Positions 9,176 through 62,245 of a stretch of 64,000 nt of DNA are shown piece by piece (the stretch's first letter is position 1; every line of letters starts with the position of its first letter). The notes under the pieces are model-generated. The model ran no database searches. It worked only from the letters and a program-made list of their open reading frames with translations, and was not told where the DNA came from. The stretch comes from Pseudogymnoascus verrucosus (lineage: Eukaryota): assembly GCA_001662655.1 (NCBI GenBank), contig KV460231.1. The stretch is one strand, 5' to 3'. The translations under genes were made by a program, and so were the position numbers.

Positions 9176-9587
9176 CCCATATCTAGAAGTTAAACGTTCC
9201 TGAGGAAGCTACGACTGCAGATTCGCCAGGTAATCGTTCTTTCCATATATACGGCCTGCATATCCCGAGCAAGGTGCGATTGAGACTTGCTTTGTTATCG
9301 TTCTTTCCATATCTATAGCATCGAAATTGCGAGGAAGCTGCGACTGAAGCTTGCTTGGTAATCGTTCTTTCCATATTTATATCTTGAGAATTCCGAGGAA
9401 GCGGCGACTGAGGATGGCTTGGTAATCGTTCTTGCCATATCTATAAACTTGAAAACTTCAAGGAAGCTGCGATTAAGGATTGCTTGGTAATCGTTCCTTC
9501 CATATGTATAACTTGAAAATGTCGAGGAAGCTGCGATTGAGGCGTGTTTGGTAATCGTTCTTTCCATATATTGGGGGTAATCGTTCT
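9176..9587. repeat. Tandem array A: 6 units of 64-65 bp plus partial units at both ends
   Basis: Units start at 9202, 9267, 9331, 9395, 9460 and 9524. Consensus core GAGGAAGCTGCGAYTGAGGCTTGCTTGGTAATCGTTCTTTCCATAT is followed by an 18-19 nt linker. A partial GGTAATCGTTCT lies at 9576-9587. Confidence 0.95.
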
Positions 9588-9976
9588 GCCTTCACGTGGT
9601 GGACGGGATACATGCGGCTTCATGATACTGGTCAATTATAATACAATCCACACAGCGAATACACATGCATGTCAATAATAGCTGCGATGCACAAATCATG
9701 TGTTTCATATTCTGATCTCTCGTAACGTATCCGTGCTGATCACAGAAAATGAAATATTGACAAAATCCTTCAGCAGCAGTTTGCCTCCGCAGTAAAGACA
9801 GGGTATATATGTTTAAGTGACTGGCATCGCTCGACCTTGACACGAATACCAAAACATCAAAAGAAAGTCGTAATAAGAAAATTCGTTCCACGATATCCGC
9901 CCTCAACCCCCTCTTCAGTCTAGACCACAACGAATGCAGCAACAGCAACGTTCTTGCCAAGCAACACGGCAGACAC

Positions 9977-12900
9977 CTAATCTTCATAATCCAACTCTTC
10001 ATCTTCATCAACCACCGCTTCGTCTTTGACCTCCCAAAACCTGGGATGGTGCTCATCTTCCACCTGCGCTAACTTCACGTAGGTATTATCTGGCTTCAGC
10101 ATGGCGTACATGGCCGGTATAACTGATACAGGGCCCTTGGACATAGCCTTCAGATGAGCCAGCTGCTTTCCGGCCAACCACCAGACCATCTTGCTCACAT
10201 AGCGTCTGTGTTGGGTGCTGAAAAGAATAGATGCTTTCAGAAGTTCCCAGGTAGATAGCTCGGCGTTGGCGAGATATGGCATCGTTAAAGATCTGGTGAA
10301 GGCCGTATCCATGGCAGGCTTGATCTCGCACCACTGAGGGTAGACGTCGTCAATGGCTGTCGAGAATATGTTTTTCGATTCCTCGTCGTCACTGGTGGAA
10401 CGAAAGTACTTTATCCACAGTTTTCGAATAGGCTCGATGTCCGCGTCGAGCCCCCTGAGAACCGACGCCCACTCATCTGAAGTCTGGGCTTCCTTCCTTG
10501 CAAACTTAGCTAGTTGAACAACATCGTCGTCCCAATATTGAGGAATTGGCAGGTTATTGTGTAGATCTGCCAAAGTATCATCTATAGTTTTCTGGGCAAC
10601 CCTGAATTTCAAATGGTCGATTAAGTGTATTTCTCCTCTTGGGTTTCCATCAAAAGCAGGCCGCTTGTAATTTGGTTCCCTCACCAGTACTCGAATCTTT
10701 TCTGCCTTCGCCCTCTCCCAGTCGCTCTCGGTAAAGGAATATCCTTGCTTTGCTTGATCAACGAGGGAACTTAGAAGTGTGCTCAAAAAGACTGCCTCCT
10801 CACATGCAACACTCCCTTTTGTATAGCAAAGCTTTTCTTTGAAATTAGTACAGATCCCAAGCATATTTTGCTTGAGGTTAAAGTCGAAACTGTTTGCTAG
10901 AAACTCATCGATTGTGTTCTTGGGATTCTTCCAGGCAAGCTCCGCGTAGGTCGTGCTGTTTTTTGTGATGTACCCCTCTTTAACCATGTCGCTACAGACC
11001 GGCATTTTTGCGTTCTCAAATTCGCTCACGATCTCTGTTTGCCAACAAACCCAAGCAATGTCGCCGTCATAATCCCCACCAGAGAGCTCCCCAGCGAGCG
11101 GAGAATCCCCTTGTGTCGAGAAAACGATAACGTCCTTGAGGGCAGACAGTTGAGGCTTGAACACGGCTCTGACTTTTTGGATATCTGAGGTGTAGTGGGC
11201 TGGAGATCGCGCCACGAGGATATCCATATCCGATAAGATGGTATCACAAAAACCAGTTGCTTCATCTTTGAAAGCCGTCGAAAACCCTATATGAACTTCT
11301 CTCGGGCCCAGAGTGCCGGTGAAGTCGACGACCATCGGTAAGTACGCTGACCGCCCAACCGAGATGTTTAGTTTGGTTTTTAGAATCTCGCCCCTCGCAA
11401 CGTTTGCCTTTCTGGCTAGGTCTCTTACAAAAGACTGTTCCTTCGGATTGAATCCAGCGTCAAGTAGCAAGTTTATCTTTTCTCCCTGCGATTTCGGTAA
11501 CCCAGCCCAGTAGGCAACCTGACCGAGTTTGATTCTATCAGTTATCCCAGGGTCGGTCTCGCGGACCCATTTGCGGAAAGACAGTGGGTTATCCATTGCC
11601 GCACGCTGTCGTCCCATCTCATAAGTCAGGCCATTTTCCAACATCCGGGACAAAGCCTCGCGCATTCCCTTTCCATTGCTTCTACCTCTGTCTTCAAGAA
11701 TCGGAAGAAACTGCAAATTCAGTGTCGCTGAGCGGACTGGCTTCGACCAACGGAGAACTTCGAATATTCTATGGCAAGGGTCGGTGAAAAAGCTACTATT
11801 ATCCCATTTCACCTGAGAGGGATAGATTTTAATGTTCGTCTTGTCACCGAAATCTTTCACATCAACTATCCACATTCCTTTTGCGCCGCCTATTCGAGCC
11901 TGAAACGCACTTGGCGTATAATCCAAGTTGAGCTTCTGAGCGATATTGTGGGCCAATTTGCGAGAGATCTGGCCGCAGCCATCGTTCATTACTTCGCCGC
12001 TTTCTGAACAATAATCATAGCGGACGAAGGATATCTCCGTGGCTTTCAGTGAAACAGTTGCATATGTTTTGCTCAAACCTGTGAGAGCAGTTAGTAATTT
12101 TATAGAGACTAAGAAAAGGAACCAATGGCACAGGGCATGGCAAAATGATTCATTAGTACAGATGCCAATAAATAGAACCATTGAAAAAGGACCCGACGGA
12201 ATGATTCGTTTGTATAGAGACTAATGAAAGGAACCATTGAAATAGAGTCTCACTTACCAAGTGATATTCTCGAGAAAAGCTTAAGGTACGGCTGCTTCTG
12301 ATTTTTTTCCAGATGGAATGGAATCAGCCAATGTAACAGCCCTTTTACGGCAAACTTTGTGTGGTGCTTGGGATCATCGTTTGTGGCAGGTGGTGTTGGG
12401 CCCGTCTGAAATCCTGTGCCATCGACAGCAAAGAAAAAAACTTGGTGGGTCGCATTATTCTCCGCATCATCAGAGGCCTTCTTCAGTTCGATGTTATTGA
12501 TCTTCTTCGATCTGGCGTCCTTCAGGCCAAATGCGCGCCACTCAATACCCATGAACTGGTGGCCATAGCCTCTTATCCAATGGCTAATTTCTTTCCGCCT
12601 CATCTCCAAATCGTCTTCCGTGCTGCCAGGTGGTCGAAATTTGGTAAGGTTGGGCAAGGTCATCTCCAGAAATCGATCGTTGCCAAATCTTCTTCCGAAG
12701 CGATGGGTAAGAGCCGTGGCTAGGGGTTTGAGCTGGACCTTGAAGAAGGGGCCTGTCTTTGAGGAGGCAAACTTCAGTGACGCTGACATCACCACGCCTT
12801 CAAAGTTGCCAACAGACCACTTTTCCAGACTGGATGCCCAGACCTTAGGCGCGCATTTCTCTGGTAATGGTTTCCCTCGGAGTTGCGGTAAGTCCTTGAG

Positions 12901-14366
12901 AAATTGCCAGAGAGCATTGTAGTCAAGAAGTGTGCGGATATCGCGAACTGGAAGGCCATCCATGGAAACTTCAGCGTGAAGGAAAACTCTTGTGATTTCG
13001 TAGCGCACGCACAGAGGTGCCTCTGTCAACCATTGGGGTAGTTCAGCTGAAATGACATTAGTCACAAGTTGCAGCTGGGAGCGACTTCATAGATATAGCG
13101 TTTGGAATCGAAGTGAACTACATCAGGTTCGGGGCGTGCCTTGAAAGTGCAGCTAGAAAGTTTGGAATCTCTGTCTCATGTCCAGCTGAGTTCAGAAACC
13201 AGGAGGTGTTCTACCGGCGATGAAGCACCCTCTTGATTGATGGAAATAATGAAGTCTGACTTACGAAATACCTGTTGTAGTCGCTGTGACAAGTCTCCCT
13301 GGATGATAGGACCTACGGAAACGTCGGACATACTGATGTCAACCCCCGAGTTTTCTTGTAAGTCCTCATTGATAATTTCGATGAAGTCATCATCATCCAT
13401 GCTCCCGTATTGGGAGCTGTGAAGCTCATCTGACATAGCCTTTATTCTTTGAATTGGTGGCGCGATTGACTGAAAGGACGTGTTGAATGAAGAAGCCTGA
13501 GTGGTTGTCCCTGTGCCTGGAATGGACCTCCCAGTAAAAACACCAGAAGCAATGGAGCTAAAGCTCGTGTTCGCGCTGACTGTCCTGGAGGTCTGTTCAT
13601 GATAAGGATTGAGAGAATACCCAGGGAAAAGCGTTGACGACGTAGAGTTTGTGGAAGGTGCCACCGTCTGTAGCGCACTGTCCTGTTTGGAAGAGGTTGT
13701 AGCGACAGAGTCAGCAGTCTTCGTTAAATCTGGCGAACCTAACAAAGCAGGTGTTCTTGGTTTCTTAAACTCTGCAGCTATGTCTGGGGCAGAAAATTCA
13801 CCGGATGTCCTCTTAACTGGACGTTGGCCCAAGTTCAAAGGAATTGGAGAGCTATCTAGTTCCGTCTGGAGAGATACTTCTCTAACACGAGTAGACTTGG
13901 GTTCAACATTATCACTACTACAAAAATCTTTACTTTCTCGGGCTTCTTTCAGCCTAAGCAATAGGCACCCTCTCAATTGTAGTCTTTGATCTCTGCCGGA
14001 GCCGTCTCGGAGGGGAGCATCGCCAACAATGGGGATAACATCACGATCTCCATTCGGCTTGTAAACCCAACCGTGGCTAACCCGGAGAGTATCCGCCTCG
14101 GCCGTAAAGGTTTGTAAGGCGCCTTGAAGAGCATGATTCTTTCGGCGGGAAAGGAAGGTAATAAGCCAAACTATCTCATCGCCGATCTTGGCATCATAGT
14201 CTCGAAGGGCAGAGCGCCTTGAGACTGGTGACTCCCCATCTCGAGGTATCGGGAGTTGAAGACCAAAGCGTTCAGATAGAGTCTTTATAAAATTGATTAT
14301 CTCAGATGCTTTTATAGGCGTGGTATCATATCTCGACGACGGTGTGCCTGGCGTCGGGAGACTCAT
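9977..14366 (-). CDS. RNA-dependent RNA polymerase of the RNAi pathway, QDE-1-like; 3 exons
   Basis: MNDGCGQIS, PSAFQARIGGAKGMW, LVARSPAH and catalytic LSGGDYDGD (the DYDGD variant found in Neurospora QDE-1). Introns at 13047-13264 and 12079-12257 join the three ORFs in frame. Confidence 0.92.
12101..12250. repeat. Degenerate 56-bp tandem repeat (about 2.7 copies) inside RdRP intron 2
   Basis: tatagagactaagaaaaggaaccaatgg (12101), tacagatgccaataaatagaaccattga (12157), tatagagactaatgaaaggaaccattga (12213). aatgattc recurs at the same offset in copies 1 and 2. Confidence 0.8.
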
Positions 14367-14897
14367 GGCCTTGTCTCTCAGGTCCGTCCCGTCGAGTCGT
14401 ATCGAGTGGAGCTAGAGTCTCGGAGACGGCGCCGACGAGACAGGCACACGCTTAGCAGGTAGACGGAGGATGATGGCCCACACAGCCGCGAAATGACACA
14501 AAACGCTGCAAAAGGGTAAAAGAGCGAGAACTGTGCAACAGAGAGCAAATATATAATGTTGGACAGTATGCAAGAGGCTGGAATTGTATTTTCCCCTCAA
14601 TGTTTCCATTTCACGGGGGCTGGAGCCTCGCGGTTCACAAAACGCATGTGTGCCTTGCAGCCTTAGTACATCCCATGTGATTGAGTGTGGGCAATAATGC
14701 GGTTAAAACGTGGACACTTTTGGTTGTGGACGTTTTAACCTTCTTCTCCGAAAATGTGGGGGTGGGTGTCGGTGAAATATTCTGCCACCTCCGAAAGAAA
14801 AAAGTTCCAGATAACTACTCTACATTCGTATCTTTCCCTCCAAAGAGAAGGAAGGGCTTCTCATTTATTGACGACCAAACTCAACACTACCGCAACA

Positions 14898-16860
14898 ATG
14901 AAACGCAAGCTCGACGGCAACGATGTGCCCGCACCTGTAGAAGAGACCAAGACTCTAGAAAGCAACTCATTTGCAGACCTTGGCCTCGATGCGCGACTCC
15001 TCCAAGCTATCGCCAAACAGAACTTCAAAGCACCTACCCTGGTTCAGAAGAAAGCTATACCTCTGGCAATAAAGGGACGGGACGTACTTGCCAGAGCGAA
15101 GACAGGATCAGGAAAGACTGCTGCTTATCTTCTCCCAATCTTACATGCTATCCTCAAGCAAAAAGAAGTGTGTTGATTGACTGCCAATTCGTCTTTTATT
15201 CTCACTAACAGTATTAGACATCTACCAAGCCTTGCACGGCCGCCCTCATTCTTGTCCCAACTCGCGAGCTTGCCGACCAAGTCTTCAAGGCTGTGGAGTT
15301 GTTCACGTCGTTCTGTGCGAAGGATGTTAGAGCTATCAACCTCACACAAAAGGTCTCCGATGCCGTTCAAAGATCGCTCCTCGCAGATGCTCCCGATATC
15401 GTTGTCGCGACACCTGCCCGCGCAGCATTAAACATCAACACATCTGCTCTCTCTCTGGATAACCTGACTCACTTGGTTATTGACGAGGCGGACCTTGTTC
15501 TTTCATACGGGTACGACGAGGATTTGCAGAATGTCGCCAAAACCATGCGCAAAGGAGTCCAAACGATATTGATGAGCGCGACACTGACAAGCGAAGTTGA
15601 TACTCTTAAGGGCCTGTTTTGTCGGGACCCCGCGGTATTGAAATTGGACGAGCAGAATGACGAGGGCGAGGAGATTAGCCAATATGTCGTGAAGTAAGCT
15701 TGGCATACAATCCAACTGGCAAACCGTTACTAACAATTCCCAGATGCGCAGAAGACGAAAAATTCCTCCTTATCTACGTTATCTTCAAGCTCAAGCTTAT
15801 TAAGGGCAAATGCATTGTTTTCGTTCAAGACATTGACCGCTGTTACCGGTTGAAGCTTTTCCTCGAACAATTCGGCATCAAGAGTTGTATTCTCAACTCC
15901 GAGCTCCCAGTCAACTCTCGTATTCACGTCGTGGAGGAGTTTAACAAGAATGTTTATGATATTATTATTGCAAGCGACGAGTACGAAATTATCGGCGATG
16001 AAGAGGATGCACCAAGAGTCCAAGAGGTTGAAGAAGCCACCCCTGAGGAGCCTAAGAAGGCTGCTGGCGATGATGAGATGGAAGTCGATATTGCAGAGAG
16101 CGAGGAGGTTGTGAAAGAAGAGAAGCCGGCAAAGAAGAAGCGCAAGCAAGCGAAACGTGACAAGGAATATGGTGTCTCCCGTGGAATTGACTTCAAGAAC
16201 GTCGCCTGTGTGTTAAATTTCGACCTCCCAACAACCTCAAAATCATATACCCACCGCGTTGGTCGTACTGGCCGTGCTGGGCAATCCGGCATGGCGCTTT
16301 CTTTCGTCATTCCAGCAAATCAATACCGCAAACACAAGCCCACATCAGTTGAGTCGTGCAAGCACGATGACGAAGTGCTCGCGAAGATCATCCGTCACCA
16401 GACCAAGAAAGGCAAGGAAGTAAAGCCGTACAACTTCGACATGAAGCAGGTTGAGGCATTCCGGTACCGAATGGGCGACGCACTACGTGCCGTTACTCGT
16501 ATCGCTGTGCGTGAAGCTCGGACGCGCGAGCTGAGACAGGAGTTGATGAAGAGTGACAAACTAAAGAGGCATTTCGAGGAGAACCCAGAAGATCTGCACC
16601 ACCTGCGACACGACGGAGAGTTACGTGCTGCAAAGGTTCAGGGGCACATGAAGCACGTGCCCAGCTATTTAATGCCAAGCGGCGGGCAGAAGGCAATCAC
16701 GGGAGAGTTAGGCTTTGTCGGGATCAGGAAGGAGAGCGAGAACCGTATTCGCAAGGCGAGAGCGGCGAACAAAGCCAAGGGAAGAGGCGCGTTTGGCTCG
16801 AAGGCGAAGAAGCATGACCCGCTGAAGAGCTTCAGGGCCAGGACGAAGAATGGGAAATAG
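14898..16860 (+). CDS. DBP9: ATP-dependent DEAD-box RNA helicase Dbp9; 3 exons
   Basis: MKRKLD start, [52 protein letters not shown] and the Dbp9-type C-terminus [16 protein letters not shown]. Confidence 0.93.
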
Positions 16861-19810: not shown

Positions 19811-22800
19811 ATGCCATACGTCGAAGGTGGGTATGCCCAGAGAGTTTTATCTACGAGGCCGAGTAACGAATATCAAGAAGGGCCGGAAGACGAGAGCTGG
19901 ATCCGCGAATTCGACGTTCCATTCAAACCCAAAAGACCTGGGAGCCAAATCTTCGACAGCCAGACTTACCCAGTGAAACGCCCTCGAAATACCCTCGAAG
20001 CTTCACATCCATATGGCAGGCAAGAGGAGATTCACCCGAGGATCAATGTAAACATCAATGGTCACCCTTCGCGACATATACTGGCTCCCGCAAATCTCCT
20101 CCACGAACAAGCACAGTATGGGCCAAATATCCCACAGTCGAACCGGGTGCAGTCTATGTAAGTTTACTGACACAATCACCGACCTCTCGATTTGCTGATA
20201 TGATTAGGCCATATCATCAAACAAGCACCCAGCCAAATACGATGGACTTCCATCCTCGTCACCCCTCAATATCTGCCCAGGCAAACCAAACACAGGGAAA
20301 TTTTGCCAGTCCTCATCAACCTGCTCCACAAGGAAACCATATCTCACCTCCAAGGCCACCTTCGTACGCTGAATCGGATCTTCGACAACCTGACGGCAAA
20401 AAATCCTTGGTCCAGCCTTTTCGCCCAAACCAGAATATCTCAAACCAGCTTTTCCAGCCACAGAACCTACAAGGTTCACGTGCCTCCAGTGTTGCACCAC
20501 CACAGGGACACGCAGGTGTCCGTGGAAACATCGACTTCAAAATCACACGACACCAGAGCGTGCCGCCTTCGCCTGTACCTCACCAGCGCCCCGCACAGTA
20601 TGCTGCATCCGGAGCTGGGGCTTCGGGCTACGGCTCTCAACCTCCCCTTCAAGGATTTCAACCCCCCCCTCAAGGATTCATACCTTCACCTCGAGGGCCT
20701 CAAAATCTGACCCAAGGATTCCAACCTTCTGCTCAAGGATTCCAGCCTTCTCCTCAAAGGTTTCTTCCACCTTCACCAATGCAGGCACGACCAGACACAA
20801 TATCACGGACTGATTTACAGCCTCGGAGTGAAACTAGCATCGCTAATGACACAAATATCTCAAAACTTCCTGTTGTGAAACGGACTGGGCCATTTATAAT
20901 TGATGACGACGAGAAGGGAATTAGGCAACCTGAAAGTCTTATCACCAACAGCGAAACAAGGGGCAACACAGCTACAGCTTATCAGACCCCAGCGCCTACA
21001 ATAAACTTCGCCCAAGGACGCCGGGGGGTTCGCAGCTTAACCTCTGGTCTTGACGATCCACCAGATCGAAAAAATGACGCTCACAACCAAACCCGGAAGA
21101 ACAAACCCGCGCTAAAAAGGTCAAAGAAGGACGAAGACGCCGCCTCGGAGAAAATACGGGAGCAATCTGAAGCTTATGCTAAAATCCAGGAGAAACAGGA
21201 TATGGCAGCCAAGGCCAAGGATACAGATGCCCTATTCGAGGAACCCATCAACGAAGCAGCCCGGGCGCGAATCCAGGCAGACATACACAAAGAAGAAACG
21301 CGCAAACGGGAAGCAGAAGTCAGAAGGAGGTACAGGGAGGGTCTGGCCCAAGAATTGGAAACTATACAGAAAGAAAATGCTGAGCGCGAAAAGGCGCGGA
21401 AAGAGGCTGAAAGGGCCGAAAGAGCATCGAAGAAAGCCAAGACTCAAGAGGAACGAGAGGCAATCCAGAAGACTCGAGAGGAAGAAGAAAAGAAACGACA
21501 CGATGAGCAAAAACGCAACGCGGAAGAGCTTCTACGGAGGAAAAGGCAAGAGCAAAGCGAGCGAGAAGCTGCCGTTTTAGAAAAGGAAGCTGCGGCCGAG
21601 CGCAAGCGACAGCAAGATGCCGAAAACCTAAAGGAAAAACTTGAAGCTTCTAAACAGGCTGCTATAAGCTTGAAGCCAGCCAGAAAGGGCCAAGGCGGAC
21701 GAGAGGAAGAGGGCGGAAGGGCCACAGCGGAAGACATGGAGATACCTGAGCCTCCAGTTGACGACGACGGAGGGCTTTTCGTCCCGGAGTGGGTTGTCAT
21801 TGAGAGTCCAGATGAAACCTATGCACCAACGGGTAGGAGTGTAGCAGTTCACCTCAGGGGAGATATCCCACGCCAGCCTTTGACGCCAACATCTCCACCA
21901 AAGATCGATTCCATACCAAATATAGAGAAGAGAGCATCCAATATCGCCGGAACAATAAAAGGGATACCTGGCTCCGATAATATTTCCCTTCGAGCGAAGG
22001 CAGGCTGGAGGGGGTCGATAAAAGCAAATACTGAGACAAAAGTTGCCAGCATAGTAATCGAACACCACAAGGAGATAATATCAGCAGACCAAAAGAGGCA
22101 CGACGAAGCTTTAGCCCAGGCACGAGCACGTGAAAGAACCGAATTGAAGGAGGATCTTGTTGATTCATTCCAGACGCTTACCTCGACCCTGATAGAGGAA
22201 GTTCAGGGACAGCTAAAGGCAGCCGTGGTTCAAGTCTTAAATGTGCGAATTCCTGCCATGCCCATGAATGCGAGGAATGGACCAAACCCGGCGAGCGCTA
22301 TTACAGTCTCTCCAAAGAAATATGCCTCGGAGACTCAGTGCTTCTTGGGCCGTAAACCTATCAAGCAACCAAAGGAGCTTACGCCATTTGGAGAAAAGAG
22401 CCCGAGCGACAATGAGGCGAAGAGACGTGAGAAAGACGAAATGCGCCTGGCTGAAAAGGCAAAGAAAAGATTCGAGGTCAAACTCCACAGGGATAACGCA
22501 GAACAAGGCAGATATATGAGTGAATATGAATTCAGGTCCACTATAGAGGGACAGGTGGTAAGTTATTCTGTCAGTCACGTTTCTTCAAGTGCTAATATTG
22601 ACGATAGAAAGAATACCGAGAAAAGCGAGAGAAAAAATATGAAAAAGAGCAGAGGATGATGCCCCATGGTGGAGGGAGACCACAAGGTCAAGCCCGTTTT
22701 GGGTATGAAGACATTGACTTCAAGGAGGGTGACTCTACTAGACCCAGCAAATCCAACTCCCAGAGCGATAAGGGTCGATGCGGGGGGGTTATGGCGCGGT

Positions 22801-24158
22801 TGCGCGAATCCAACGGTTCTCTGGGCCATTTCCAACAAGCTGCAGCCGCAAAAATAGTTGACGACAGAATGCACCACTTGAGAGATGACGGCGACAGTGA
22901 AAGCGAAGTCTCGGAAGAAGATCCTGATGACGACGAGTCAGACACTATTCTAATACGCCAGCCAAAGTTGACTGAACCTTCGAATCACTGGGACCGTGCT
23001 TCTGATATCAAAGCAACTGGAGCTGATAGAATGGCAACCTTCGAATATGACAACAAGCCTACGCAGGTGATAAAGCCTCGCCACCTCCAAGACAAAGAAA
23101 TGGTGAACATCTTTTCGGTGCAACGATCGGAAATTAAAGATGAAGAAAAATCTCTGGCTATCACTATAAAACAGTTTTTTGATAGAGACGATGCGAATGA
23201 ATTTGCAGAAGAAGAGATCAGACGAACTCGTTGGGGCCCAGCAATGTTTAGACCTCAGATAACACAATGGTATTCGAAGGAGACAGGACTGTTCCACGGC
23301 AGGGCCTACATCGACTCCGAAGAGAACATAGTCGAATGTGTCGATGTAGCGGTACAGGCCCAGTATATCGGAGATTTGGAGTTTGCGCATGAAAAAGTCA
23401 AGCCCAAATTAGAGCCCAAACTATATATTATTTTCAAGTCAATAACCAAGAGGGTTCGAACTACTATGGGTTCAGATGATGATGATGAGGCCAGCGAGAA
23501 CGGAGCGTCCGAACAAAACATTGAATCGGATGAGAGCGAAGAGGCAGAACAAAGCATGGAGATAGACCAGAATGGCGAGCCAGAACAACCCATGGAGGCA
23601 GACCAGGCTCGCGCAGCAGAACAAGTCATGGGGACTAATCAGAATGGCGAGGAAGAACAGAACAAAGAGACAGAGCACGACACGGACAATAATCAGAATG
23701 TTAATGAAAAATCCGACGATCACAAAAGTGGTAGCTCCAGGGAACCTGGCGGGGACGGAATCGATGCCCTATTCGAAGAAGAGGCAGAAGTTGAACCTTC
23801 CGACAACTCTGGCCATATTTTGGCGGCCGACGTGCATCAGCTGTCTCTTGACTCCAAATGCTCTGAAGCAAAGCCCGAAATGATGCTCACTCAAACCTGC
23901 AAGCCGGTTGGGGCATATGCTGAGCGTGAGTTGGCCAACAAGCGAGCTTCCGAGATATTTCTTGCAGAAATTAGGCCTGTTGGAGGCGATATTTCCCAGC
24001 TTGTTGCATTCCAAAACGATGCCGTGAAGCCGGTCAGAGAGAGCCTGGAAAGCCATAATAGATCCGGGGAATTGTTCTCGGCCTCAAACGATTACGCAAA
24101 CAGTGGTGAGATTCGGATCTGGGTTGAGGACTTCGAGATCATGGGGCCATCGAATTGA
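19811..24158 (+). CDS. Large hypothetical protein with a Pro/Gln low-complexity N-terminus, a charged coiled coil and an acidic C-terminal region; 3 exons
   Basis: ORFs 19811-20161, 20200-22659 and 22656-24158 can be joined by GTAAGT introns at about 20159-20207 and 22558-22607. No family was recognised. Confidence 0.7.
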
Positions 24159-53298: not shown

Positions 53299-56007
53299 AT
53301 GACGGCCCAGCCACAGATCACCTCCGTAACCTTCGAAAACACACACTCCCTCCTCGCCATCGGCCACGCCAAACCCCGCCTCTCGTGGCGCTTCACCCCG
53401 GGCTCCCCCGCTGTCCAAAACTGGAGGCAGCGCGCATACGAGCTTGAAATACGCCGAGGACAGGGCGAAGGAACTGTAGAGTCGTATTCCGTCGAAAGCG
53501 AGGATTCTGTCCTGGTTCCATGGCCGAGCGCGGCGCTGCAATCGCGCGATGTCGTACAAGTGAGGGTTAGGGCGTTTGGAGGTGAGAGCAAGGATGGGAC
53601 GGAGTGGTCGGCGTGGGTTACGGGTGAGGCGGGGCTGTTGAATCAGAGCGACTGGGTAGCGAAACTCATTACGAATCCTGATGTTGATGAGGGTCCATTG
53701 AGGCCTGTGTTGTTCAGGAAGGCATTTTCGCTGGGTAGTGAGAAGGGGAAGATTGTTAAAGCGCGGTTGTATACTACTGCGTGTGGTGTGTATGAGGCGT
53801 ATATCAATGGGAAGAGAATTGGGGATGAGGCGATGGCGCCAGGGTGGACGAGTTATAAGCATAGGCATCATTATCAGGTGTTTGATGTGTCTGAGAGTCT
53901 GAAAGCGGATGGAGATAATGTTATTGGTGTTGAAGTTGGTGAAGGGTGGTATGCTGGTCGCTTGGGCTTTCATGGGGGCCAGCGCTTCATTTATGGAAGA
54001 GAACTAGCATCACTCGTGCAGCTGGAGGTCGAGTTTGCCGATTCAAGTGAACGTTTTACGCTGATCTCGGACGAGTCATGGACGTGTGGGAAAAGCCCAA
54101 GGATTCGGAGTGAGATTTATGACGGCGAAGTTTATGATATGAGAGAGGAACAAGAGGAGTGGAATGAAAGCATTACTACCCCCAATGGCGCCACCTGGGA
54201 AGGAGTCAAAGTTCTCCCTCCTCTCACTGCAAAGCTCATCGCTCCAGATGCGCCGCCCGTTACCGTCACGGAAGAGGTCAACCCAGTCGAAATTATCAAG
54301 ACAAAGTCCGGGAAAACGGTCATTGATTTTGGGCAGAACCTGGTGGGAAACCTACGTGTCAACTCCGTCCGACTCTCTGCGGGTCAGAAGATCTCATTTA
54401 CGCATGTGGAGGTGCTTGAGAATGGCGAAATCAGTACCCGGCCACTTCGAGGAGCAGTATGCGTTGATACTGTGGTTTTTTCTGATAAAGTGCTCCGCGA
54501 CTGGTCTCCGAAATTCACGTTCCACGGGTTTCAGTACGTGCAGGTTGATGGGTGGCCAGCTACTATGGATGGTGAACTTCCTTCTAAGTCTGACTTTACT
54601 GCTCTGGTCATGCATACAAACATGGAGAGGACAGGCTGGTTCAATTGTTCTGACACCCTCGTTAATAAGCTCCATGAGAATGTTGTTTGGGGTATGCGTG
54701 GCAACTTTTTGTCGATCCCGACCGATTGCCCGCAGCGAGACGAGCGTTTGGGATGGACGGGCGATATACAGGTGTTTTGCCCTTCAGCAAATTTCCTCTA
54801 CAATACTGCTGGTATGTTGAGCAACTGGCTTGAAGATGTTTCAGAGGAGCAGTTTAAGGATGAGGAGAATATGATTCCCGGCATCGTTGTCCCGAATATT
54901 CTTCGCGAGATTTGGCCCACGGGTGGGCAGGCGGTCTGGCATGACGTGGTCGTGCTGACTCCTTGGGACTTATATAACTCCTATGGCGATGTAGAGATAC
55001 TACGCAGACAGTACGAGAGTATGAGAGGCTGGGTAGATAAAGGAGTTGCCCGTGGCCCAGATGGTCTCTGGGACCCATTGACCAGGCAGCTCGGCGACTG
55101 GCTGGACCCAGCAGCCCCTCCCGATGAGCCGTCTATGGGCCGCACCGACGGCGTGTTGGTGGCAGATGCCTATCTCGTCCGCGTCACATCGACACTTGCG
55201 CAGATCAGCGCCATCCTCGGATGCCCCGAAGAAGTAGAACGCTACTCTGCTGACGCAGTAAAACTCAAAGCCTTGTTTCAGAACAAATACATCACTCCTC
55301 TTGGTCTCCTCGTGAGCGACACCCAAACCGCCCTCTCCATTGCCCTTGCGTTCAATCTCCATGAGCAACCAGTACAGGCCGAAGCAGCCGCAGAGCGCCT
55401 CTCTCGTCTTGTCCGCACTTCCCGCTTCCGCATCTCCACCGGTTTCGCTGGCACTCCACTCGTTACGCATGCATTGACTCGTTCAGGACAGAGCCAGCTC
55501 GCCTACCGCATGCTGCTCGAGCAGAAGTGTCCCTCATGGTTGTACCCCGTCACCATGGGCGCGACAACTGCATGGGAGCGCTGGGACAGCATGCTCCCCG
55601 ACGGATCGATCAATCCAGGATCTATGACAAGCTTCAACCACTACGCCCTCGGGTCGGTGATTAACTGGCTGCACACTACTGTTGGAGGGATTAGCCCCTT
55701 AGCGCCGGGATGGAAAGAGATAATGGTCAGGCCTGTGCCCGGGGGGTCACTGACGTCGGCTGAGGTCAGGTATGAGAGTCCGTATGGACGGATTGAGTGT
55801 AGTTGGACGTTAGAGGGGACGAAGTTTGCGATGAAGCTTGAGGTCCCGCCGAATTCGACTGCGGTGGTTATCCTGCCTGATCAGGTGTATGGAGCGGTGG
55901 AGGGTGGTAAGGGGCAGGTTGTTGGTTCGGGGACACATGAGTTCTCTTGTGTGTTTGAGATGGGGCCTTGGCCGGAGGAGATTTTTGATCCGTTTAGGGC
56001 GGATTAG
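53299..56007 (+). CDS. Alpha-L-rhamnosidase, glycoside hydrolase family 78; intronless, no signal peptide
   Basis: ARLYTTACGVYE, APGWTSY, DFGQNLVG, FTFHGFQYV, IPTDCPQRDERLGWTGD, GATTAWERWD and SFNHYALG. Confidence 0.95.
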   Translation: MTAQPQITSVTFENTHSLLAIGHAKPRLSWRFTPGSPAVQNWRQRAYELEIRRGQGEGTVESYSVESEDSVLVPWPSAALQSRDVVQVRVRAFGGESKDGTEWSAWVTGEAGLLNQSDWVAKLITNPDVDEGPLRPVLFRKAFSLGSEKGKIVKARLYTTACGVYEAYINGKRIGDEAMAPGWTSYKHRHHYQVFDVSESLKADGDNVIGVEVGEGWYAGRLGFHGGQRFIYGRELASLVQLEVEFADSSERFTLISDESWTCGKSPRIRSEIYDGEVYDMREEQEEWNESITTPNGATWEGVKVLPPLTAKLIAPDAPPVTVTEEVNPVEIIKTKSGKTVIDFGQNLVGNLRVNSVRLSAGQKISFTHVEVLENGEISTRPLRGAVCVDTVVFSDKVLRDWSPKFTFHGFQYVQVDGWPATMDGELPSKSDFTALVMHTNMERTGWFNCSDTLVNKLHENVVWGMRGNFLSIPTDCPQRDERLGWTGDIQVFCPSANFLYNTAGMLSNWLEDVSEEQFKDEENMIPGIVVPNILREIWPTGGQAVWHDVVVLTPWDLYNSYGDVEILRRQYESMRGWVDKGVARGPDGLWDPLTRQLGDWLDPAAPPDEPSMGRTDGVLVADAYLVRVTSTLAQISAILGCPEEVERYSADAVKLKALFQNKYITPLGLLVSDTQTALSIALAFNLHEQPVQAEAAAERLSRLVRTSRFRISTGFAGTPLVTHALTRSGQSQLAYRMLLEQKCPSWLYPVTMGATTAWERWDSMLPDGSINPGSMTSFNHYALGSVINWLHTTVGGISPLAPGWKEIMVRPVPGGSLTSAEVRYESPYGRIECSWTLEGTKFAMKLEVPPNSTAVVILPDQVYGAVEGGKGQVVGSGTHEFSCVFEMGPWPEEIFDPFRAD

Positions 56008-56502
56008 AGAACTAGTGTCCTTATGGTAGCGAATTGTTATCTGACGCATTGTATTTATGCGGAGCTGCCATTGGGTAAGGAGTATTTACACTCTTTTGCT
56101 ATGCCTGGGTAGATCAGTGGATGCGTGATATGGTGAGTGGGGGCGCGAATCATGATCTGCACGGACAACAGCGTTATGCTGTGCTCGGGGTCGGGCCATC
56201 CCGCCTTATTAGTTTTATCAAAAGAGTATAAATACTCTTTAAGCCTCCGAAGGGTTATCCCGCCTTCCACTTCATGGCAGCCTTATTCACATCCTATTTC
56301 ACAGGCAGCTTCCCAAGGAATGCTGAATATAGCAACTTGAATACAGTACGTTCAATTCTGCTACGCTTAAGGAGCAAAGCCACGAATACTATGATATATC
56401 AAGCGTTCGCTATGAAGGCACGTCTCGAAAGGGGAAGCTCCTTGTGCAGAGAAAAGAAAAAGAAGACAATAACACAACCACATCTTCGATCTAGCAAATG
56501 AC

Positions 56503-58115
56503 TCATAGCTCTTTCAACGCGTGTGCGCCCCTCTCCTCACTCAAACTCCGCTTTTGATCTACTTCTTCAGAAAGGTGCAGTCTAGGCAGCCTGCGAGCCA
56601 CGCGTGGAGGGTCGAAAATATTGTTGGACTGCAAAAAGATCTCGTCTATTTCCTCGAGCGTGCGGCCCTTCGTCTCGGGGAAGCAGAAGTACACAAGCAA
56701 CGCGATGGCGGCGTTGAAAACGGCATAGATGATAAAATACTTGTGCTTGATGGTGTTTAGGCCAACTGGTGTCACCTCCGCCACCATGAAGCTAAATGCC
56801 CACACAGTCGCAGTGGAGATGGCATTGGTTGCCGCGCGATGTTGTAGGGGCGCGACCTCGGCGGCGTATAGGTATGGTAGACCCGAAAAGCCGATCGAGA
56901 ATATGCCCTCGAACATATAGACAAAGACAACAGCCACGATTAGCGCGCCGCTGTTGCCAGGGTTCGAAGTGGTGCCAGCAAGGATCGCCATGCAGATACA
57001 CAAGCCTATTGAGGTCCATATCATGAGGATTCGGCGTCCTAGGCGCTCAATAGTGAAATATGCAACAACTCCACCTGCTATGTCGGCAAAGCCAATGCAT
57101 GCAGACAAGATACGAGCATTTACTGGATCCATTCCCAGGAATCCTTCGAACAGAGTCGTCGTATAGAGAGTAATTGCGTTAATACCGCATAGCTGCTGGA
57201 AAAACTGGCCGGCAGACGCGAGGATGGTTCGATGCATGGTTCGTTGCCTGCCCATTTTGAACACGCCCCACCTGGATTCGGACGAAGAGACAGATAGCGA
57301 AGCCTCCATGTCACGAATGTCGAAATTAATCGCGTCCGAGTCGGGCTCAACGTCCAATAATAGGGCTAGAATCTCACGCGCTTCATCGCAACGACCCTGT
57401 TTGACTAGCCAACGTGGGGACTCAGGTAGGAATGCTACAAAGCCTGCTACCATGAGTAGTAGCACGATTTGAAAGGCAAACGGGAATCTCCACGATACGG
57501 AATTCGATCCGACGAAGTAAAATCCGAGATCGAGGAACAAGGCAAGACTGATACCAGATCCGATGAAGGCCGTGTTGGCGACTAGGCTGGCTCCACGATC
57601 ACTTGCGCGCGAGAGTTCTGATTGCCAGACAGGGACTGTTGCCAGGTACCCGCCGGTTCCCAGACCAAGTACTAGCCTGGCAACTATAAGTTGGGCAGTT
57701 CCGAATGCCGTTGCCATCAGAATTGCACCGATCATGGCTACCGAGGCAGCAATGGCGATGACACGCCTACGTCCCAAGCGATCGCCGAAATAGATGCATA
57801 ATAAAGAGCCGAAAATTCCCCCTATATTATACAGGCCCATGACGGTTCCTATTAGAGCACGTTAGAAAACTTGATCGGGGCGAGGCCAACGGTTCTCAAC
57901 GGCTACCAACCTAGGATTTGGGAGTTATAATGTTGTTCGGCGCCCGTAGTAGTGATTGTATTCAACAGGGGGAATGTCTCAATAAAGGAGTTGAGGGTCA
58001 ATAACCCCCCCATCACTGCCAGATTGTACGCATAACAACCAAACGCCGGCCACACAACCAGAAACACAATTGCTCTATTGAGCGACGAGCCCCGAAGGCC
58101 AAAATATTTCTTCAT
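56503..58115 (-). CDS. MFS sugar porter family transporter; 2 exons
   Basis: GDRLGRRR, VPVWQSE, WRFPFAFQ, PESPRWL, QQLCGIN, ERLGRR and PETKGRTLEEID. Intron at about 57849-57909. Confidence 0.93.
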
Positions 58116-58836
58116 TTTTGGGCATCAATGGAACGAACAGAGATGGGGAATGCCAAACTTACATCTCCACAGATCAGCATATTTCATATATCTTTTTTTT
58201 TCGCGTATTTTGTTCCCGAGGGTTTGAGCGGGGTATGCGCGGCGGCTGCCGCCGATAAGGACGCCAAGCTTCTGACTTGTGGGGTAGTGATCTGCCAAGT
58301 TTGTGGGGAAAGTGGCGGTCCCCGATAACTGGAAATTCAACCCCACACCTACAGGCGATGACATTGCATGTATGAGTGCTATATAGTAAAGCAACTGTTT
58401 GTCATAACTTCGGAAACGATCGAGCCTCGGTGTAGACGACCTTGAGCGGCAGCTTTCGGACTACAACATGATTGGATTTCTCTCATTGACCACCTCACTT
58501 ACTTCAATCCCCTGTTACGCCACCACCCCGCGTTACACTATTCCCCGCATTCCGCCATCTTATTTCTCCCGAGATTTGCGCCACATTCTTTCCTACATTA
58601 TCGTGCATCCGGGCTCCTATAATCACTCGAACCTCTTATCTCCGTTATTTCTCATGTCGATATATCGTATCTGCGTTATTTCTTATGTTGGCATCTCGTC
58701 AATACGTAAAGGTCGGAAGCGGCCGGACACCGAGCCAAGACACAGGCGACCATGTTTCCCTGTTGATCCTGCCATCTCCCATCCACCACATAGACTTTAG
58801 TTACTGTTACATGATACTGCGTCGGCGAAGATCGTC

Positions 58837-58870
58837 TTCCAATTCAGTAGGTGTTCCAATTCAGTAGGTG
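58837..58870. repeat. Perfect 17-bp tandem duplication in the guanine deaminase promoter
   Basis: ttccaattcagtaggtg twice, about 70 bp upstream of a TATATAAA box near 58939. Confidence 0.9.
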
Positions 58871-59013
58871 CAGCCTTCGATCTTCGTCGTGCTTGGTAGG
58901 TTTGTCTCTCTAGTACGATTGTCATCCAGCTCGAGGATATATAAATACGCTCTCCTCAGGATGGCAGAGCGATCCAAGAAGTGAGCATCGATTTGAATAG
59001 CTTTTCGTTCATT

Positions 59014-60726
59014 ATGTTTAAAACCTTTTTCGGACTTTCGAGGATACCCGCAGTGGCATGGCTATGTCTTGGGATGTTTTATGCCTCCAGCACGATGGCC
59101 ATGACATATCCATACACAGTCTATCGCGGTACATTCATTCATCATCCTCGGCTTAATTCGAGCTCTGCCAAGCCGGAGCTCGTTCGAAATCAAGGTGCCC
59201 TGTGGGTCTCGTCTGAAGATGGCCGCATCAAGGGATATGATTGGAACGTCCACGATGATGCCAGCTTCCAATCATTCTTGTCTAACCATGGCTGGATTGC
59301 TACCAAAGCTGGAACTAATAAAAATTACAAGTCACAGACTAGAGTTAAAGTTGTACAGTCCAATGACACACGGAACGAGTTTTTCTTTCCGGGATTCATT
59401 GGTATGACCGGTCTACCTTAATGACCATATATTAGAACTGACCATGTAGATACCCATATCCACGCTCCGCAGTTCCCCAATATCGGACTGTTTGGATCAT
59501 CAGGTCTTCTGGACTGGCTAGACGAATACACCTTCCCAGTAGAAGCTAGCTTCGGCTCAAAGTCAGACCCAAACAACGAGGACACAGATCCTAAAGACAC
59601 CCCCCTGGAGGGTCTGCGCGTCTATGATCACGTCGTTGCTCGTACTCTTGCCCACGGCACAACATGCGCATCATACTTTGCCACCATTCATGTCCCGGCT
59701 ACTAACGCCCTCGCAGCACTCTGCCACTCTCATGGCCAACGTGCATTCATCGGCCGCGTCTGCATGGACAACCATGATCAATGCCCATCTTACTACGTTG
59801 ATGAGTCCGCCGAGTCGGGTCTTAACGCAACTAAGTCGACAATAGATTATATCCACACCCTTGACCCGAACGGAACATTGATCAACCCAATCATCACACC
59901 TAGATTTGCCATAAGCTGCTCAAACAGCTCCCTTGATGGGCTTGGAAAACTAGCTGCATCCTACGATCCGCCCTTGCACATCCAAACGCATATCTCTGAG
60001 ACCACCAGCGAGGTCGACCTCGTCCACCAACTGTTCCCCGAGGCAGCCAGCTACGCCGATGTCTATGACAAGGCTAACCTGCTTACATCTCGCACCATCC
60101 TCGCCCACGCGGTACACCTCACCAAGGACGAACGCACCCTCGTCCGCGAACGCGGCTCTAAAATCGCACACTGCCCTGCCTCAAACTCTGCTCTGGGCTC
60201 TGGGCTTGCAGTTGTCCGCACTATGCTCAATGAAGGACTTACAGTTGGTCTAGGCACGGATGCGAGCGGTGGGTACAGCCCCAGTATCCTTGAAGCGGCC
60301 AGACAGGCCTGTCTTGTGTCTAGATTGGTTGGCTACAGCACCGAGTTCCCTGAAATATCGGGTAACGCAACAGCAGATGGATCTGAGAAACTTTCAGTTG
60401 TTGAAAGTCTTTACCTCGCTACACGTGGTGGCGCAGCAGTGGTTGACATGGCCGACGATATTGGAGGCTTCGATGAGGGGATGATATGGGATGCGCAACT
60501 GATTGAGTTGGGTGCTGTGAAGAATAGCACTACTAATCCGCTTGATGCAGCGCACGTCAGTTGTGTCACTACTGAGTCTCTTCTTGAGTCTGGACCTGTG
60601 GGCAATGTTGATTTGTATGGAAATGAGACTTGGGAGGAGCAGGTTGAGAAGTGGATGTGGAGTGGTGATGATCGGAATGTGAAGAATGTGTGGGTTCAGG
60701 GGAAGCTAGTGCATACTAGAGAGTAG
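59014..60726 (+). CDS. Guanine deaminase (amidohydrolase superfamily) with a signal-peptide-like N-terminus; 2 exons
   Basis: FFFPGFI|DTHIHAPQ, LDWLDEYTFP, PIITPRFA, HIQTHISE, LAHAVHL, HCPASN, GLGTDASGG and WSGDDRN. Intron at about 59402-59449. Confidence 0.88.
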
Positions 60727-61961
60727 ATGAGCGGGCTTTCTTCTTTCTAGTATATTTGTTGTGGTGTCTATTTTATTCTATTTCATATGTATATATGGTA
60801 ACGTGTTGTTATTACACGGGTTGAGAACAGGATTCCAACTAAATACACTACTTTACCACTGCCACATGCCCCTTTTGTGCGGGTACAGTGCAATCCAGCC
60901 TCATCATCCTCCCAAAAATTACAGATATGGCTGGTTTTAGTCACTGTTCCTTTTTATTCAAAACCTCGAGAGTCTCCGGATTATGGGCGACATCATGACC
61001 ATGCTGGTCTTTAAACAGAACCTACATATTTATTTAGCACCACCTTCCCCTCCTACCGAATTCTATCACAATACCTTTGGAGGGTATTTCACAAGCTTCC
61101 TCTCTGCGTCTTTCTCATCCAAGACTACTTTATCAGCCTATCTACATTTTAGTCTCCGTGTAATTAGCTACCCGCTTACCGCCCCGAAACTTAGTAAAGA
61201 CGGTGTCGCCCTCCTCAATTGGGGTCCCTGTCCTGTCTTGGATTTCGCTAAGGATGGATGAATGAAAAATTATACGGAGAAGGACAAGGTCTATTTAACT
61301 ATCGTTCTGTACCCCAGGACAAGCGTGGGGAAACTCGGGCAATTGCAATGTCGCATTACATCGTGAAAGAGAGTTTAAGGGTAGTTTTTTATATTTGGTG
61401 TTTTGTTAGAATACATGCGAATCAGGGGTTGTCATTTAAGGTTAGTTAAACGGCGGCAAGCTCCATTACGTCAACGATATATCATGACGCGCATTGCTTT
61501 GAGAACTAACCTCACTTCTCCCAAGAAAAATAGATGGGGGACTGTCAAAAGCATAATGGTTTTTGAAACATAAGCTGCCAATATATGAAAAGGATATAAG
61601 GAGACATGAACTTACAAATGCTCTGCTATAACTCTCAAATTCATGGCGTTTTCTAGCATCCTCTACATGCGGAATATATGATTTGATAAACAAATAATTC
61701 TTTTGCTGCGGCTTAAATTAATCTTTCTTGGTGCTTACCATTCACAATCCATCAAAGCTTAATTTTTGTTAATTTTCCGTACCAGTCATGTTCGAAGCAC
61801 TCGAGAGACAGATTCGTCGGTGTGATGGTGATCTATGGGGCAATTAGAGGCGGTACCAGCCTTTTCGACTACGGCTAGTGCAGAAACCAATCCCATTCAG
61901 CCCATTCAGTCGTTCAAATGACTACTATACAACAGATCCTCATTTTTTAAAAACATATATC

Positions 61962-62245
61962 GGAAGCTGCGACTGCGGCTTTGCTTAATAATCGTTCTTT
62001 CCATATCTATAACCTAAAAGTTTACCTGAAAGTCTACGGGGAAGCTGCGACTGCGGCTTGCTTGGTAATCGTTCTTTCCCTATATAGCGCCTGAAAATCC
62101 CAAGGAAGCTGCGATGGAGGGTTTGCTTGGTAATCGTTCTTTCCATATCTCGAACCTGAAACTTCCAAGGAAGTTGCGACTGTGGCTTGCTCGGTAATCG
62201 TTCCTTCCATATCTAGAACTATATCTTGAACCTGAAAATTCTGAG
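61962..62245. repeat. Tandem array B: 4 units of the same ~64-bp family as array A, same orientation
   Basis: Cores at about 61962, 62038, 62102 and 62167, e.g. GGAAGCTGCGACTGCGGCTTGCTTGGTAATCGTTCTTTCC. The first and last linkers carry internal partial duplications. Confidence 0.95.

What the first reader, a model, noticed from the sequence alone, without database searches (positions are those of the whole stretch)
9176..62245. Dispersed ~64-bp core-plus-linker array family at two unlinked intergenic sites 52 kb apart
Seen directly: the same ~46-nt core (GAGGAAGCTGCGAYTGAGGCTTGCTTGGTAATCGTTCTTTCCATAT) forms a 6-unit array at 9176-9587 and a 4-unit array at 61962-62245, in the same orientation. 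I found no shared flanking sequence and no transposase nearby. The sub-block GGTAATCGTTCTTTCCATAT is almost invariant over the 10 copies, while the 18-19 nt linkers diverge much more yet mostly keep their length. The 64-65 bp period is not a multiple of 3, so it is not a protein repeat. Inference: two arrays in 64 kb suggest a genome-wide family. Uneven conservation within the unit suggests constraint, for example a protein-binding site array, a structured small-RNA precursor, or the remnant of a non-autonomous mobile element. I do not recognise it as a described element.
Basis: partly seen in the sequence, partly recalled or inferred. Interest (0 to 1): 0.8.

Follow-up and report, generated by a model that had tools for sequence, protein, structure and literature searches.

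The report
Fungal DNA motif arrays between genes
A cold-adapted fungus carries well over a hundred small repeat clusters between its genes, built in several different layouts around one 13-letter DNA word, which suggests landing pads for an as yet unidentified DNA-binding protein.

Summary
The genome is a Pseudogymnoascus. The two arrays belong to a family of 37 arrays of 2-10 units, period 63-65 bp. The conserved core is two inverted copies of one 13-bp motif, GGAAR-NN-RCGAYY. The motif is 16-fold enriched genome-wide (338 vs 21). It also builds at least 45 other clusters with different spacers: 23-bp head-to-tail, irregular, and separate dyads. Motif sites change about 11-fold slower than linkers. 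Clusters favour gene 3' ends: 18 of 33 classifiable ones are convergent, against an 11% baseline. Array 1 sits at the same site in 4 of 4 relatives laid; unit number varies. Arrays spread with variable flanks; no common ends, adjacent transposase, Rfam match or covariation was found. Best reading: an undescribed system of clustered binding sites for one DNA-binding protein that turns over and copies itself by recombination. The protein is unidentified. Whether the host benefits (boundary or roadblock) or the arrays are selfish is open.

The parts
9176..9591 (+). Array 1: leading linker, six 64-65-bp units, trailing partial core. Each unit = forward motif + 14-16-bp spacer + inverted motif + about 23-bp AT-rich linker
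   Evidence: forward half-sites start at 9204, 9269, 9333, 9397, 9462, 9526; inverted half-sites at 9232, 9296, 9360, 9424, 9489, 9553
9572..9755 (+). 3' flank co-duplicated with other arrays: first ~40 bp like the C39 array (L062); about 9610-9755 like the C6 and C3 arrays (L035, L033; 68-75% identity)
   Evidence: only one other genome match, beside the C6 array
61960..62245 (+). Array 2: four units (periods about 77, 65, 64) plus trailing linker-like DNA
   Evidence: forward half-sites at 61962, 62040, 62104, 62169; inverted at 61990, 62067, 62132, 62196
7981..8946 (+). Peroxidase gene (last open frame), ending about 255 bp before the first core of array 1; context only
   Evidence: PF00141
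9977..13086 (-). Cellular RNA-dependent RNA polymerase gene, ending about 405 bp after array 1, so array 1 lies between convergent genes; context only
   Evidence: PF05183
59095..60726 (+). Guanine deaminase gene, ending about 1.2 kb before array 2; the next long frame is also on +, so array 2 is in a tandem interval; context only

Best explanation
The arrays are one layout of a Pseudogymnoascus-wide system of clustered sites for a single sequence-specific DNA-binding protein that reads the 13-bp word GGAAR-NN-RCGAYY (commonest form GGAAGGAACGACC/T) on double-stranded DNA. SHOWN: the word is the slow-evolving part of the 64-bp unit, in both orientations; it also forms 23-bp head-to-tail, irregular and other dyad arrays; the clusters lie between genes, mostly at 3' ends; they persist in place across relatives while units are gained, lost and replaced; they have been copied to new loci with 30-230 bp of variable flank. 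INFERRED: the 64-bp unit arose by tandem amplification of the terminal dyad-plus-tail of a 23-bp-type cluster; a protein binds the word; the bound cluster acts as a local barrier (a roadblock to read-through transcription or a chromatin boundary between neighbouring genes, and a pause for replication forks); breaks or template switches at the barrier cause unit turnover and ectopic copying. I put about 0.7 on 'binding-site clusters for one protein' and about 0.4 on the whole statement, with a host-useful barrier role.
For: Motif enrichment: 437 vs 110, 338 vs 21, paired 37 vs 0 against the reversed-pattern control. Dyad of two half-sites with matching degeneracy. Gamma model better by 317 lnL units; motif sites rate about 0.19, linker about 2.2. 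Units from other genomes match the G000 consensus at 258 of 272 slow motif positions, 433 of 508 other core positions and 208 of 306 linker positions. 45 clusters, 420 sites, in other layouts; modal spacing 23 bp. Scan of 226 kb of C38: 6 clusters of >=3 sites, none in the reversed sequence. Context: 12 convergent, 11 tandem, 1 divergent of 24 classifiable 64-bp arrays; 6, 3, 0 of 9 others; baseline 11/58/31% by length (P about 1e-9 combined). Array 1 orthologous in X3, X8, X11, X14; L071/L055 and L076/L035 orthologous, L075/L040 probably. Beside the flank where another genome (L069) has a 64-bp array, G000 has a 23-bp-type cluster in the opposite orientation. Tails of 6 of 7 23-bp-type clusters score like the 64-bp linker.
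Against: No protein was identified and no binding, chromatin or expression data were seen. Orthologous units are no better conserved than their flanks (terminal units 0.81 and 0.84; flanks 84% and 92%). The layouts probably share ancestry, so they are not fully independent origins of the motif. Only a small share of convergent intervals carry a cluster, neighbours show no common function, and loci are clumped, with several 330-570-kb contigs lacking strict hits. At the G000 site matching L072 there is no cluster. Exceptions to the 3' rule: L151 divergent, L104 just upstream of a gene, L154 nearer a start, array 2 about midway. The 3' bias could come simply from loss of insertions in promoters. 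Gene calls were crude, and 13 of 37 and 15 of 24 clusters could not be classified.
Confidence: 0.4

Rival explanations
1. Selfish, motif-driven minisatellite superfamily. A host protein binds the word for its own reasons; binding stalls forks or invites breaks; units with an intact word are preferentially amplified and copied elsewhere. The host gains nothing, and arrays survive at 3' ends because they do least harm there.
For: Copying with variable flanks in at least 7 groups. Unit gain, loss and homogenisation between relatives. Orthologous units not conserved above flanks. Clumped distribution. A divergence step at array 1 in X3 (37 differences and 18 gaps in about 1050 bp to the left, 8 differences in 1267 bp to the right) and synteny breaks near L069 and L077, one case each.
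Against: Neighbouring arrays are not more alike than average (0.700 vs 0.694), so clumping is not simple local hopping. Arrays stay small (2-10 units). One interval is occupied by different layouts in two genomes. Positions persist across lineages whose flanks are only 80-92% identical.
Confidence: 0.27
2. Sequence-defined chromosome-maintenance sites: replication origins, or homologue-pairing or recombination sites, read by a dedicated protein.
For: Roughly 140 or more clusters in 30 Mb (my estimate); intergenic, orientation-independent, convergent-biased; clustered short-motif design like nematode pairing centres (PMC11605055, abstract start and passages); the X3 divergence step.
Against: Spacing is clumped, not even (median 52 kb vs 87 kb expected, P=0.001; 13 gaps under 10 kb vs 5.9). 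Loci occur on many contigs rather than one region per chromosome. No chromosome-level assembly was available to test this properly.
Confidence: 0.15
3. Decayed subterminal or internal repeats of a DNA transposon (TIR element or Helitron/Helentron), the word being a transposase-binding site.
For: A subset of 23-bp clusters has direct motifs followed by one inverted motif and a shared tail ending near CTAG (7 of 45 sampled, plus one on C23). Flank capture is Helitron-like (recalled). The genome holds about 40 pogo-type DNA-binding domains.
Against: No end is shared by more than a small subset. Similarity of L100 and L153 runs 160 bp past the CTAG. No transposase family in 143 + 123 flanking frames. 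No motif in the TIRs seen among 26 of 40 pogo loci. No Helitron_like_N hit (weak test, its control found nothing either).
Confidence: 0.12
4. RNA-level element: hairpin arrays or repeated RNA-protein sites in 3' UTRs, or small-RNA precursors.
For: The consensus unit folds into a hairpin (-15.2 kcal/mol); per-unit mean z -1.1 on + and -0.7 on -; many arrays lie within 30-400 bp of a stop codon.
Against: Pairing in 23 candidate pairs equals the expectation under independence within 0.05; common variants break pairs without compensation. Whole-array z +1.27 and +1.77. Most 23-bp clusters cannot form the hairpin. Both orientations occur relative to the nearest gene end. Rfam blank.
Confidence: 0.06

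Closest known systems
Dispersed minisatellite (VNTR) families with a shared core, e.g. human hypervariable minisatellites (recalled, not tested against a call)
   Same: Short tandem units at many loci, variable unit number, copying with flanks, one core word shared by arrays of different period.
   Different: Arrays are very short; units within an array are hardly more alike than between arrays (0.715 vs 0.694; best hit in own array for 25 of 158); the word occurs as inverted pairs as well as head-to-tail; strong bias to gene 3' ends.
C. elegans pairing-centre motif clusters bound by ZIM/HIM-8 (PMC11605055: abstract start and passages seen)
   Same: Clusters of an 11-13-bp word with two constrained sub-sites separated by less constrained bases.
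   Different: There the binding proteins and meiotic role are shown and each motif is confined to particular chromosomes; here no protein is known and clusters are scattered between genes on at least 30 contigs.
Yeast general-regulatory-factor site arrays acting as roadblocks, boundaries or fork barriers (Reb1, Rap1, Tbf1, S. pombe Sap1; recalled)
   Same: Intergenic clusters of a short asymmetric word, plausible barrier role at gene ends.
   Different: No sequence match was tested or is claimed; here the sites are amplified as mobile tandem repeats.
Bacterial REP/BIME arrays (recalled; PMC3733652 seen only as a search listing)
   Same: Imperfect palindromes with linkers, arrayed at gene 3' ends and between convergent genes.
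   Different: No HUH transposase partner found (weak), no hairpin covariation, and most clusters here are direct repeats.
Subterminal repeats of TIR transposons and Helentron-derived elements (recalled)
   Same: Direct motifs followed by an inverted copy and a shared tail in a subset.
   Different: No universal ends, no target duplication seen, no partner element found.

Membership tests
Dispersed minisatellite/VNTR family | Head-to-tail units of 10-100 bp at many loci | tested here: met
   37 arrays, period 61-67 for 115 of 128 periods
Dispersed minisatellite/VNTR family | Unit number varies between genomes at the same locus | tested here: met
   5 vs 3 units (L071/L055); X14 lacks about one unit of array 1
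Neutral decaying repeat | Uniform divergence along the unit | tested here: not met
   Site rates 0.19-2.2; gamma model better by 317 lnL units
Non-autonomous TIR element (MITE, pogo, hAT, CACTA) | Common terminal inverted repeats on all copies | tested here: not met
   Flanks fall into at least 7 unrelated groups, same side and orientation, no inverted ends
Non-autonomous TIR element (MITE, pogo, hAT, CACTA) | Target-site duplication and clean empty site | tested here: inconclusive
   Three candidate empty sites were unalignable or rearranged
Non-autonomous TIR element (MITE, pogo, hAT, CACTA) | Autonomous partner carrying the motif in its ends | tested here: inconclusive
   Absent from TIRs among 26 of 40 pogo-domain loci; other superfamilies not searched
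Helitron/Helentron | Fixed 5' and 3' ends with subterminal hairpin | tested here: not met
   CTAG-type tail in about 8 clusters only, and homology continues past it
Helitron/Helentron | Rep-helicase gene in the genome | tested here: inconclusive
   No PF14214 hit, but the control genomes also gave none
CRISPR-like array | Unique spacers between identical repeats | tested here: not met
   Linkers descend from one consensus
Structured non-coding RNA | Compensatory covariation or Rfam match | tested here: not met
Structured non-coding RNA | Expression as RNA | not tested
   The single read-laying run was used on DNA-type runs
Protein-binding-site cluster (GRF-like or pairing-centre-like) | One short word recurring in clusters with unrelated spacers, far above background | tested here: met
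Protein-binding-site cluster (GRF-like or pairing-centre-like) | A protein that binds the word specifically | not testable with these tools
   No GCR1_C hit (weak test); no other candidate tested
Pairing centre | Confined to one region per chromosome; needed for pairing | tested here: inconclusive
   Clumped but on many contigs; assembly is in 151 contigs
Sequence-defined replication origin | Roughly even genome-wide spacing | tested here: not met
   Clumped; several 330-570-kb contigs without strict hits (lower-bound census)
Sequence-defined replication origin | Autonomous replication activity | not testable with these tools
   needs a plasmid assay

The most novel reading that the evidence does not exclude
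A filamentous ascomycete lineage has evolved its own sequence-defined chromosomal element (boundary, fork barrier, origin or pairing site), read by one protein, in which only a 13-bp word is fixed while the array grammar around it (23-bp head-to-tail, 60-90-bp dyads, irregular) is reinvented and the sites re-seed themselves around the genome by recombination. The small DNA fragments exchanged between otherwise clonal Pseudogymnoascus lineages might start or end at such sites.
Probability: 0.25. Interest if true: 0.85.

Novelty: new variant of a known kind. Interest (0 to 1): 0.63.

Why it matters
To my recalled knowledge, sequence-defined origins, boundaries and pairing sites are poorly known in filamentous fungi. 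A short word, amplified in over a hundred clusters at conserved intergenic sites, gives a direct handle: one pull-down names the protein and one deletion series shows its job. It also offers a testable link to the short exchanged segments (mean 878 nt) reported in Pseudogymnoascus (PMC4438637). If the arrays prove selfish, they are still a clear case of a repeat family that keeps a protein-readable word while changing its layout, and they give lineage-specific VNTR markers.

Tried and rejected
RNA hairpin: MI and 23 explicit pair tests showed no covariation; whole-array folding no better than shuffles. Rfam: none in the window at gathering score; two sub-threshold mir-84 hits away from the array in 4 loci. 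tRNA/tmRNA: none. Protein repeat: stops in all frames. Fixed-ended element: no common ends. Helitron and GCR1_C family searches blank but uninformative, since controls were blank too. Pogo TIR origin: rejected for the 26 of 40 loci fetched. Viral collection: no match to either pattern. Prokaryote collection: 2 and 4 isolated matches, taken as chance; only the first two were examined. Five of 11 metagenome hits were not arrays: L067, L073, L074 (one single near-perfect hairpin in AT-rich DNA) and L068, L070 (GC-rich). Two of 36 fetched candidate loci (C34, C53) held no array and were dropped; 6 of 164 units outside 55-72 bp were left out of the alignment. Local hopping as the cause of clumping: near pairs not more similar, except L058/L059, which share a flank. 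Strand polarity of clusters along contigs: a hand count gave about 37 same vs 29 different adjacent pairs, not convincing. Empty-site analysis gave no insertion point. Runs with small word shares were not used except X14, which was laid; X1, flagged as a possible source, was left out. Earlier scan findings were not available. Literature: (listings) found no description of the family; (four 11-letter forms of the motif) returned 90 papers, of which the 25 listed were unrelated by title; 65 were not seen, and subscription journals and supplements are outside the search.
Full report
1. Observation. Array 1 has six cores at 9202-9571, a leading linker from 9176 and a trailing partial core. Array 2 has four cores at 61960-62213, with a longer first period. 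Both have stops in all six frames. No Rfam family or tRNA was found in the window.

2. Organism and census. The guanine deaminase next to array 2 is identical over 422 residues to a protein annotated from Pseudogymnoascus, and the next best hits are from the same genus. The genome is 30.2 Mb in 151 contigs. Pattern and BLAST searches gave 36 candidate loci outside the window, of which 34 held arrays. With the window's two and one found later on C100 that makes 37, a lower bound. The first 36 hold 164 units, 2-10 per array; 84 of 128 periods are 63-65 bp.

3. Anatomy of the unit. In 158 aligned units, positions 1-47 are 0.78-0.80 identical pairwise and the linker 0.47-0.50. Within-array identity hardly exceeds between-array identity (0.715 vs 0.694), and only 25 of 158 units have their best match in their own array. 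A gamma model beats equal rates by 317 lnL units, with site rates from 0.19 to 2.2. The slow sites form two inverted half-sites, GGAAR-NN-RCGAY-T, with similar degeneracy on both sides and a variable inner spacer. This looks like a hairpin, but none of 23 candidate pairs holds more often than independence predicts by over 0.05, and common variants break pairs without compensation. The whole array folds no better than shuffles (z +1.27, +1.77); single cores are only mildly stable (mean z -1.1 and -0.7). A double-stranded dyad of two sites fits better than an RNA stem.

4. The main result: the half-site is a genome-wide word. GGAARNNRCGAYT occurs 437 times against 110 for the reversed control, GGAARGARCGAYY 338 against 21, and a head-to-tail pair 37 against 0. 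I fetched 40 loci chosen from these hits, so the sample is biased. In the first batch 17 of 20 held clusters of three or more sites, including 6 of the 8 picked for a single hit; in the second, 20 of 20 did. With one more at C15 this gives 45 clusters and 420 sites outside the 64-bp family. The commonest spacing is 23 bp (105 cases), but there are also 19-bp, irregular and composite forms, and separate dyad units of about 60 and 80-90 bp. A contiguous scan of 226 kb of C38 (a contig chosen because it is rich in 64-bp arrays) found 6 clusters, 4 of the 64-bp type, and none in the reversed sequence; the window holds only its two arrays. Strict hits mark 84 further loci on C1-C42, about 10 of them expected by chance (list incomplete), so I estimate 140 or more clusters in all. 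Seven sampled 23-bp clusters end in an inverted motif plus a tail; 6 of these 7 tails score like the 64-bp linker, above the 99th percentile of a random null that was not AT-matched. I infer that the 64-bp unit is that terminal dyad, amplified. The layouts are therefore probably related, and what they keep in common is the word.

5. Placement. With one crude codon-based classifier for arrays and baseline, 64-bp arrays fall 12 convergent, 11 tandem, 1 divergent, 13 unclassified; other clusters 6, 3, 0, 15. The baseline from 67 intergenic gaps is 11, 58, 31% by length. Combined P is about 1e-9; for 64-bp arrays alone against the count baseline, 1.4e-4. All 11 tandem 64-bp cases were scored nearer the upstream stop, array 2 only marginally. 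Pfam contradicts the single divergent call (L042) but shows real exceptions among other clusters (L151, L104, L154). Both orientations occur relative to the nearest gene end. Neighbours range from housekeeping to metabolic genes with no theme, and none of 143 + 123 frames matched a transposase family. The 64-bp arrays are clumped: 9 adjacent pairs 21-60 kb apart against 2.4 expected (P=4e-4, contig lengths partly interpolated), yet such pairs are not more similar than average. All 117 loci together are clumped as well.

6. How they spread. After masking arrays, subsets share 30-230 bp of flank on the same side and strand, in at least seven unrelated groups; array 1 shares its 3' flank with arrays on C39, C6 and C3. 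The two flanks searched genome-wide occur only beside arrays. No end is common to all. The genome has about 40 pogo-type DNA-binding domains; TIRs seen among 26 of these loci lack the word, although one element lies beside a cluster. Helitron and GCR1_C searches were blank but weak. The pattern fits template-switch or break-repair copying rather than cut-and-paste (inference).

7. Relatives. A metagenome scan gave 11 contigs, 6 with arrays. L071 is orthologous to L055 (5 vs 3 units; flanks 84% and 92%), L076 to L035, and L075 probably to L040. L072 maps to a G000 interval with no cluster and unalignable intergenic DNA. L077 may be the far end of the L076 array across an inversion (inference). 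The two flanks of L069 map to different contigs; about 345 bp beyond its right flank G000 has a 23-bp-type cluster in the opposite orientation, one case of layout replacement. Foreign units match the G000 consensus at 95% of slow motif sites, 85% of other core sites and 68% of linker sites, but orthologous units are no closer than their flanks: fast turnover with the word retained. Contigs of 4 of 24 listed runs were laid on array 1. All four carry the array at this site (X8 by one low-depth contig) and many paralogues; X14 lacks about one unit; in X3 divergence drops from about 3.5% to 0.6% across the array, a single observation. No array was found in viral contigs; prokaryote hits were isolated.

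8. Mechanism. Shown: one word, several layouts, slow motif sites, 3' placement, positional persistence, unit turnover, copying with flanks. Inferred: a protein binds the word (about 0.7). What follows from binding is open. I favour a barrier at gene ends that also stalls forks and so fuels its own turnover (0.4), over a purely selfish minisatellite (0.27), origins or pairing sites (0.15), a transposon relic (0.12) and an RNA element (0.06). The first two cannot be separated by sequence alone.

9. Comparison and novelty. It qualifies as a dispersed minisatellite family, and fails the tests run for TIR elements, Helitrons, CRISPR-like arrays and structured RNA. It works like a binding-site cluster system; membership of any named one is not claimed. 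Papers: PMC4438637 (passages and part 2 of 3 of the results) reports 77 short regions of altered phylogeny averaging 878 nt, and its main text has one use of 'repeat', for RepeatMasker. PMC12222008 (passages) has no main-text mention of tandem repeats or minisatellites. PMC11605055 (abstract start, passages) describes pairing-centre motif clusters. Searches were seen as listings only and showed no description of this family or word. Supplements were not opened and repeat libraries such as Dfam and Repbase were not available, so an entry there cannot be excluded. Comparisons with human minisatellite cores, yeast regulatory-factor arrays, REP/BIME and transposon subterminal repeats are recalled.

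10. Verdict. Real, genus-level, apparently undescribed, and more interesting than the two arrays first seen, because the 64-bp family exposes a genome-wide motif system. New variant of a known kind; interest 0.63.

Noticed in passing
window 59095-60726: After six other Pseudogymnoascus-like hits, the guanine deaminase's best matches are Penicillium and Aspergillus proteins at 82-84% identity, with no other Leotiomycete named in the top 120; possible horizontal transfer between fungal classes.
   Followed up: no
window 19867-24155: Two long A-rich frames (930 and 516 aa), probably one gene of a large low-complexity, coiled-coil-like protein with no Pfam match, preceded by about 1.5 kb of AT-rich non-coding DNA.
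   Followed up: partly
L043:3069-3176 (G000 C14:181.5 kb): The array ends in one inverted unit, forming a fold-back junction.
   Followed up: no
L157, L177, L178 (G000 C15:405 kb, C46:255 kb, C2:630 kb): Pogo/CENP-B-type DNA-binding domains with no terminal inverted repeats in the stretch fetched; possibly domesticated, and untested candidates for the binding protein.
   Followed up: partly
L158-L182: Many distinct pogo/Fot1 elements of about 1.86 kb with 95-100% identical TIRs and long open frames, suggesting recent activity.
   Followed up: partly
L067:3630-3673, L073, L074: A single near-perfect 22-bp-arm hairpin containing the same word in both arms, in AT-rich contigs of an unrelated-looking organism; probably chance given a palindromic search pattern.
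   Followed up: partly
L101:1840-4921 (G000 C6:120-123 kb): Four motif clusters within 3 kb in a long stretch with no predicted coding segment downstream of the DNA primase large-subunit gene; the first may lie inside an open frame.
   Followed up: partly
L040, 200-1200 bp on the 5' side of the array (G000 C9:612.5-613.5 kb): A separate degenerate tandem repeat of about 175-bp period.
   Followed up: no
window 12101-12242: A 56-bp tandem repeat, 2.5 copies, between the two open frames of the RdRP gene.
   Followed up: no
G000 C9, C18, C20, C39: These contigs carry 64-bp arrays but no strict hit of the other layouts, while C4, C5, C7, C8 and C10 show the reverse; overall densities are not negatively correlated.
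   Followed up: partly
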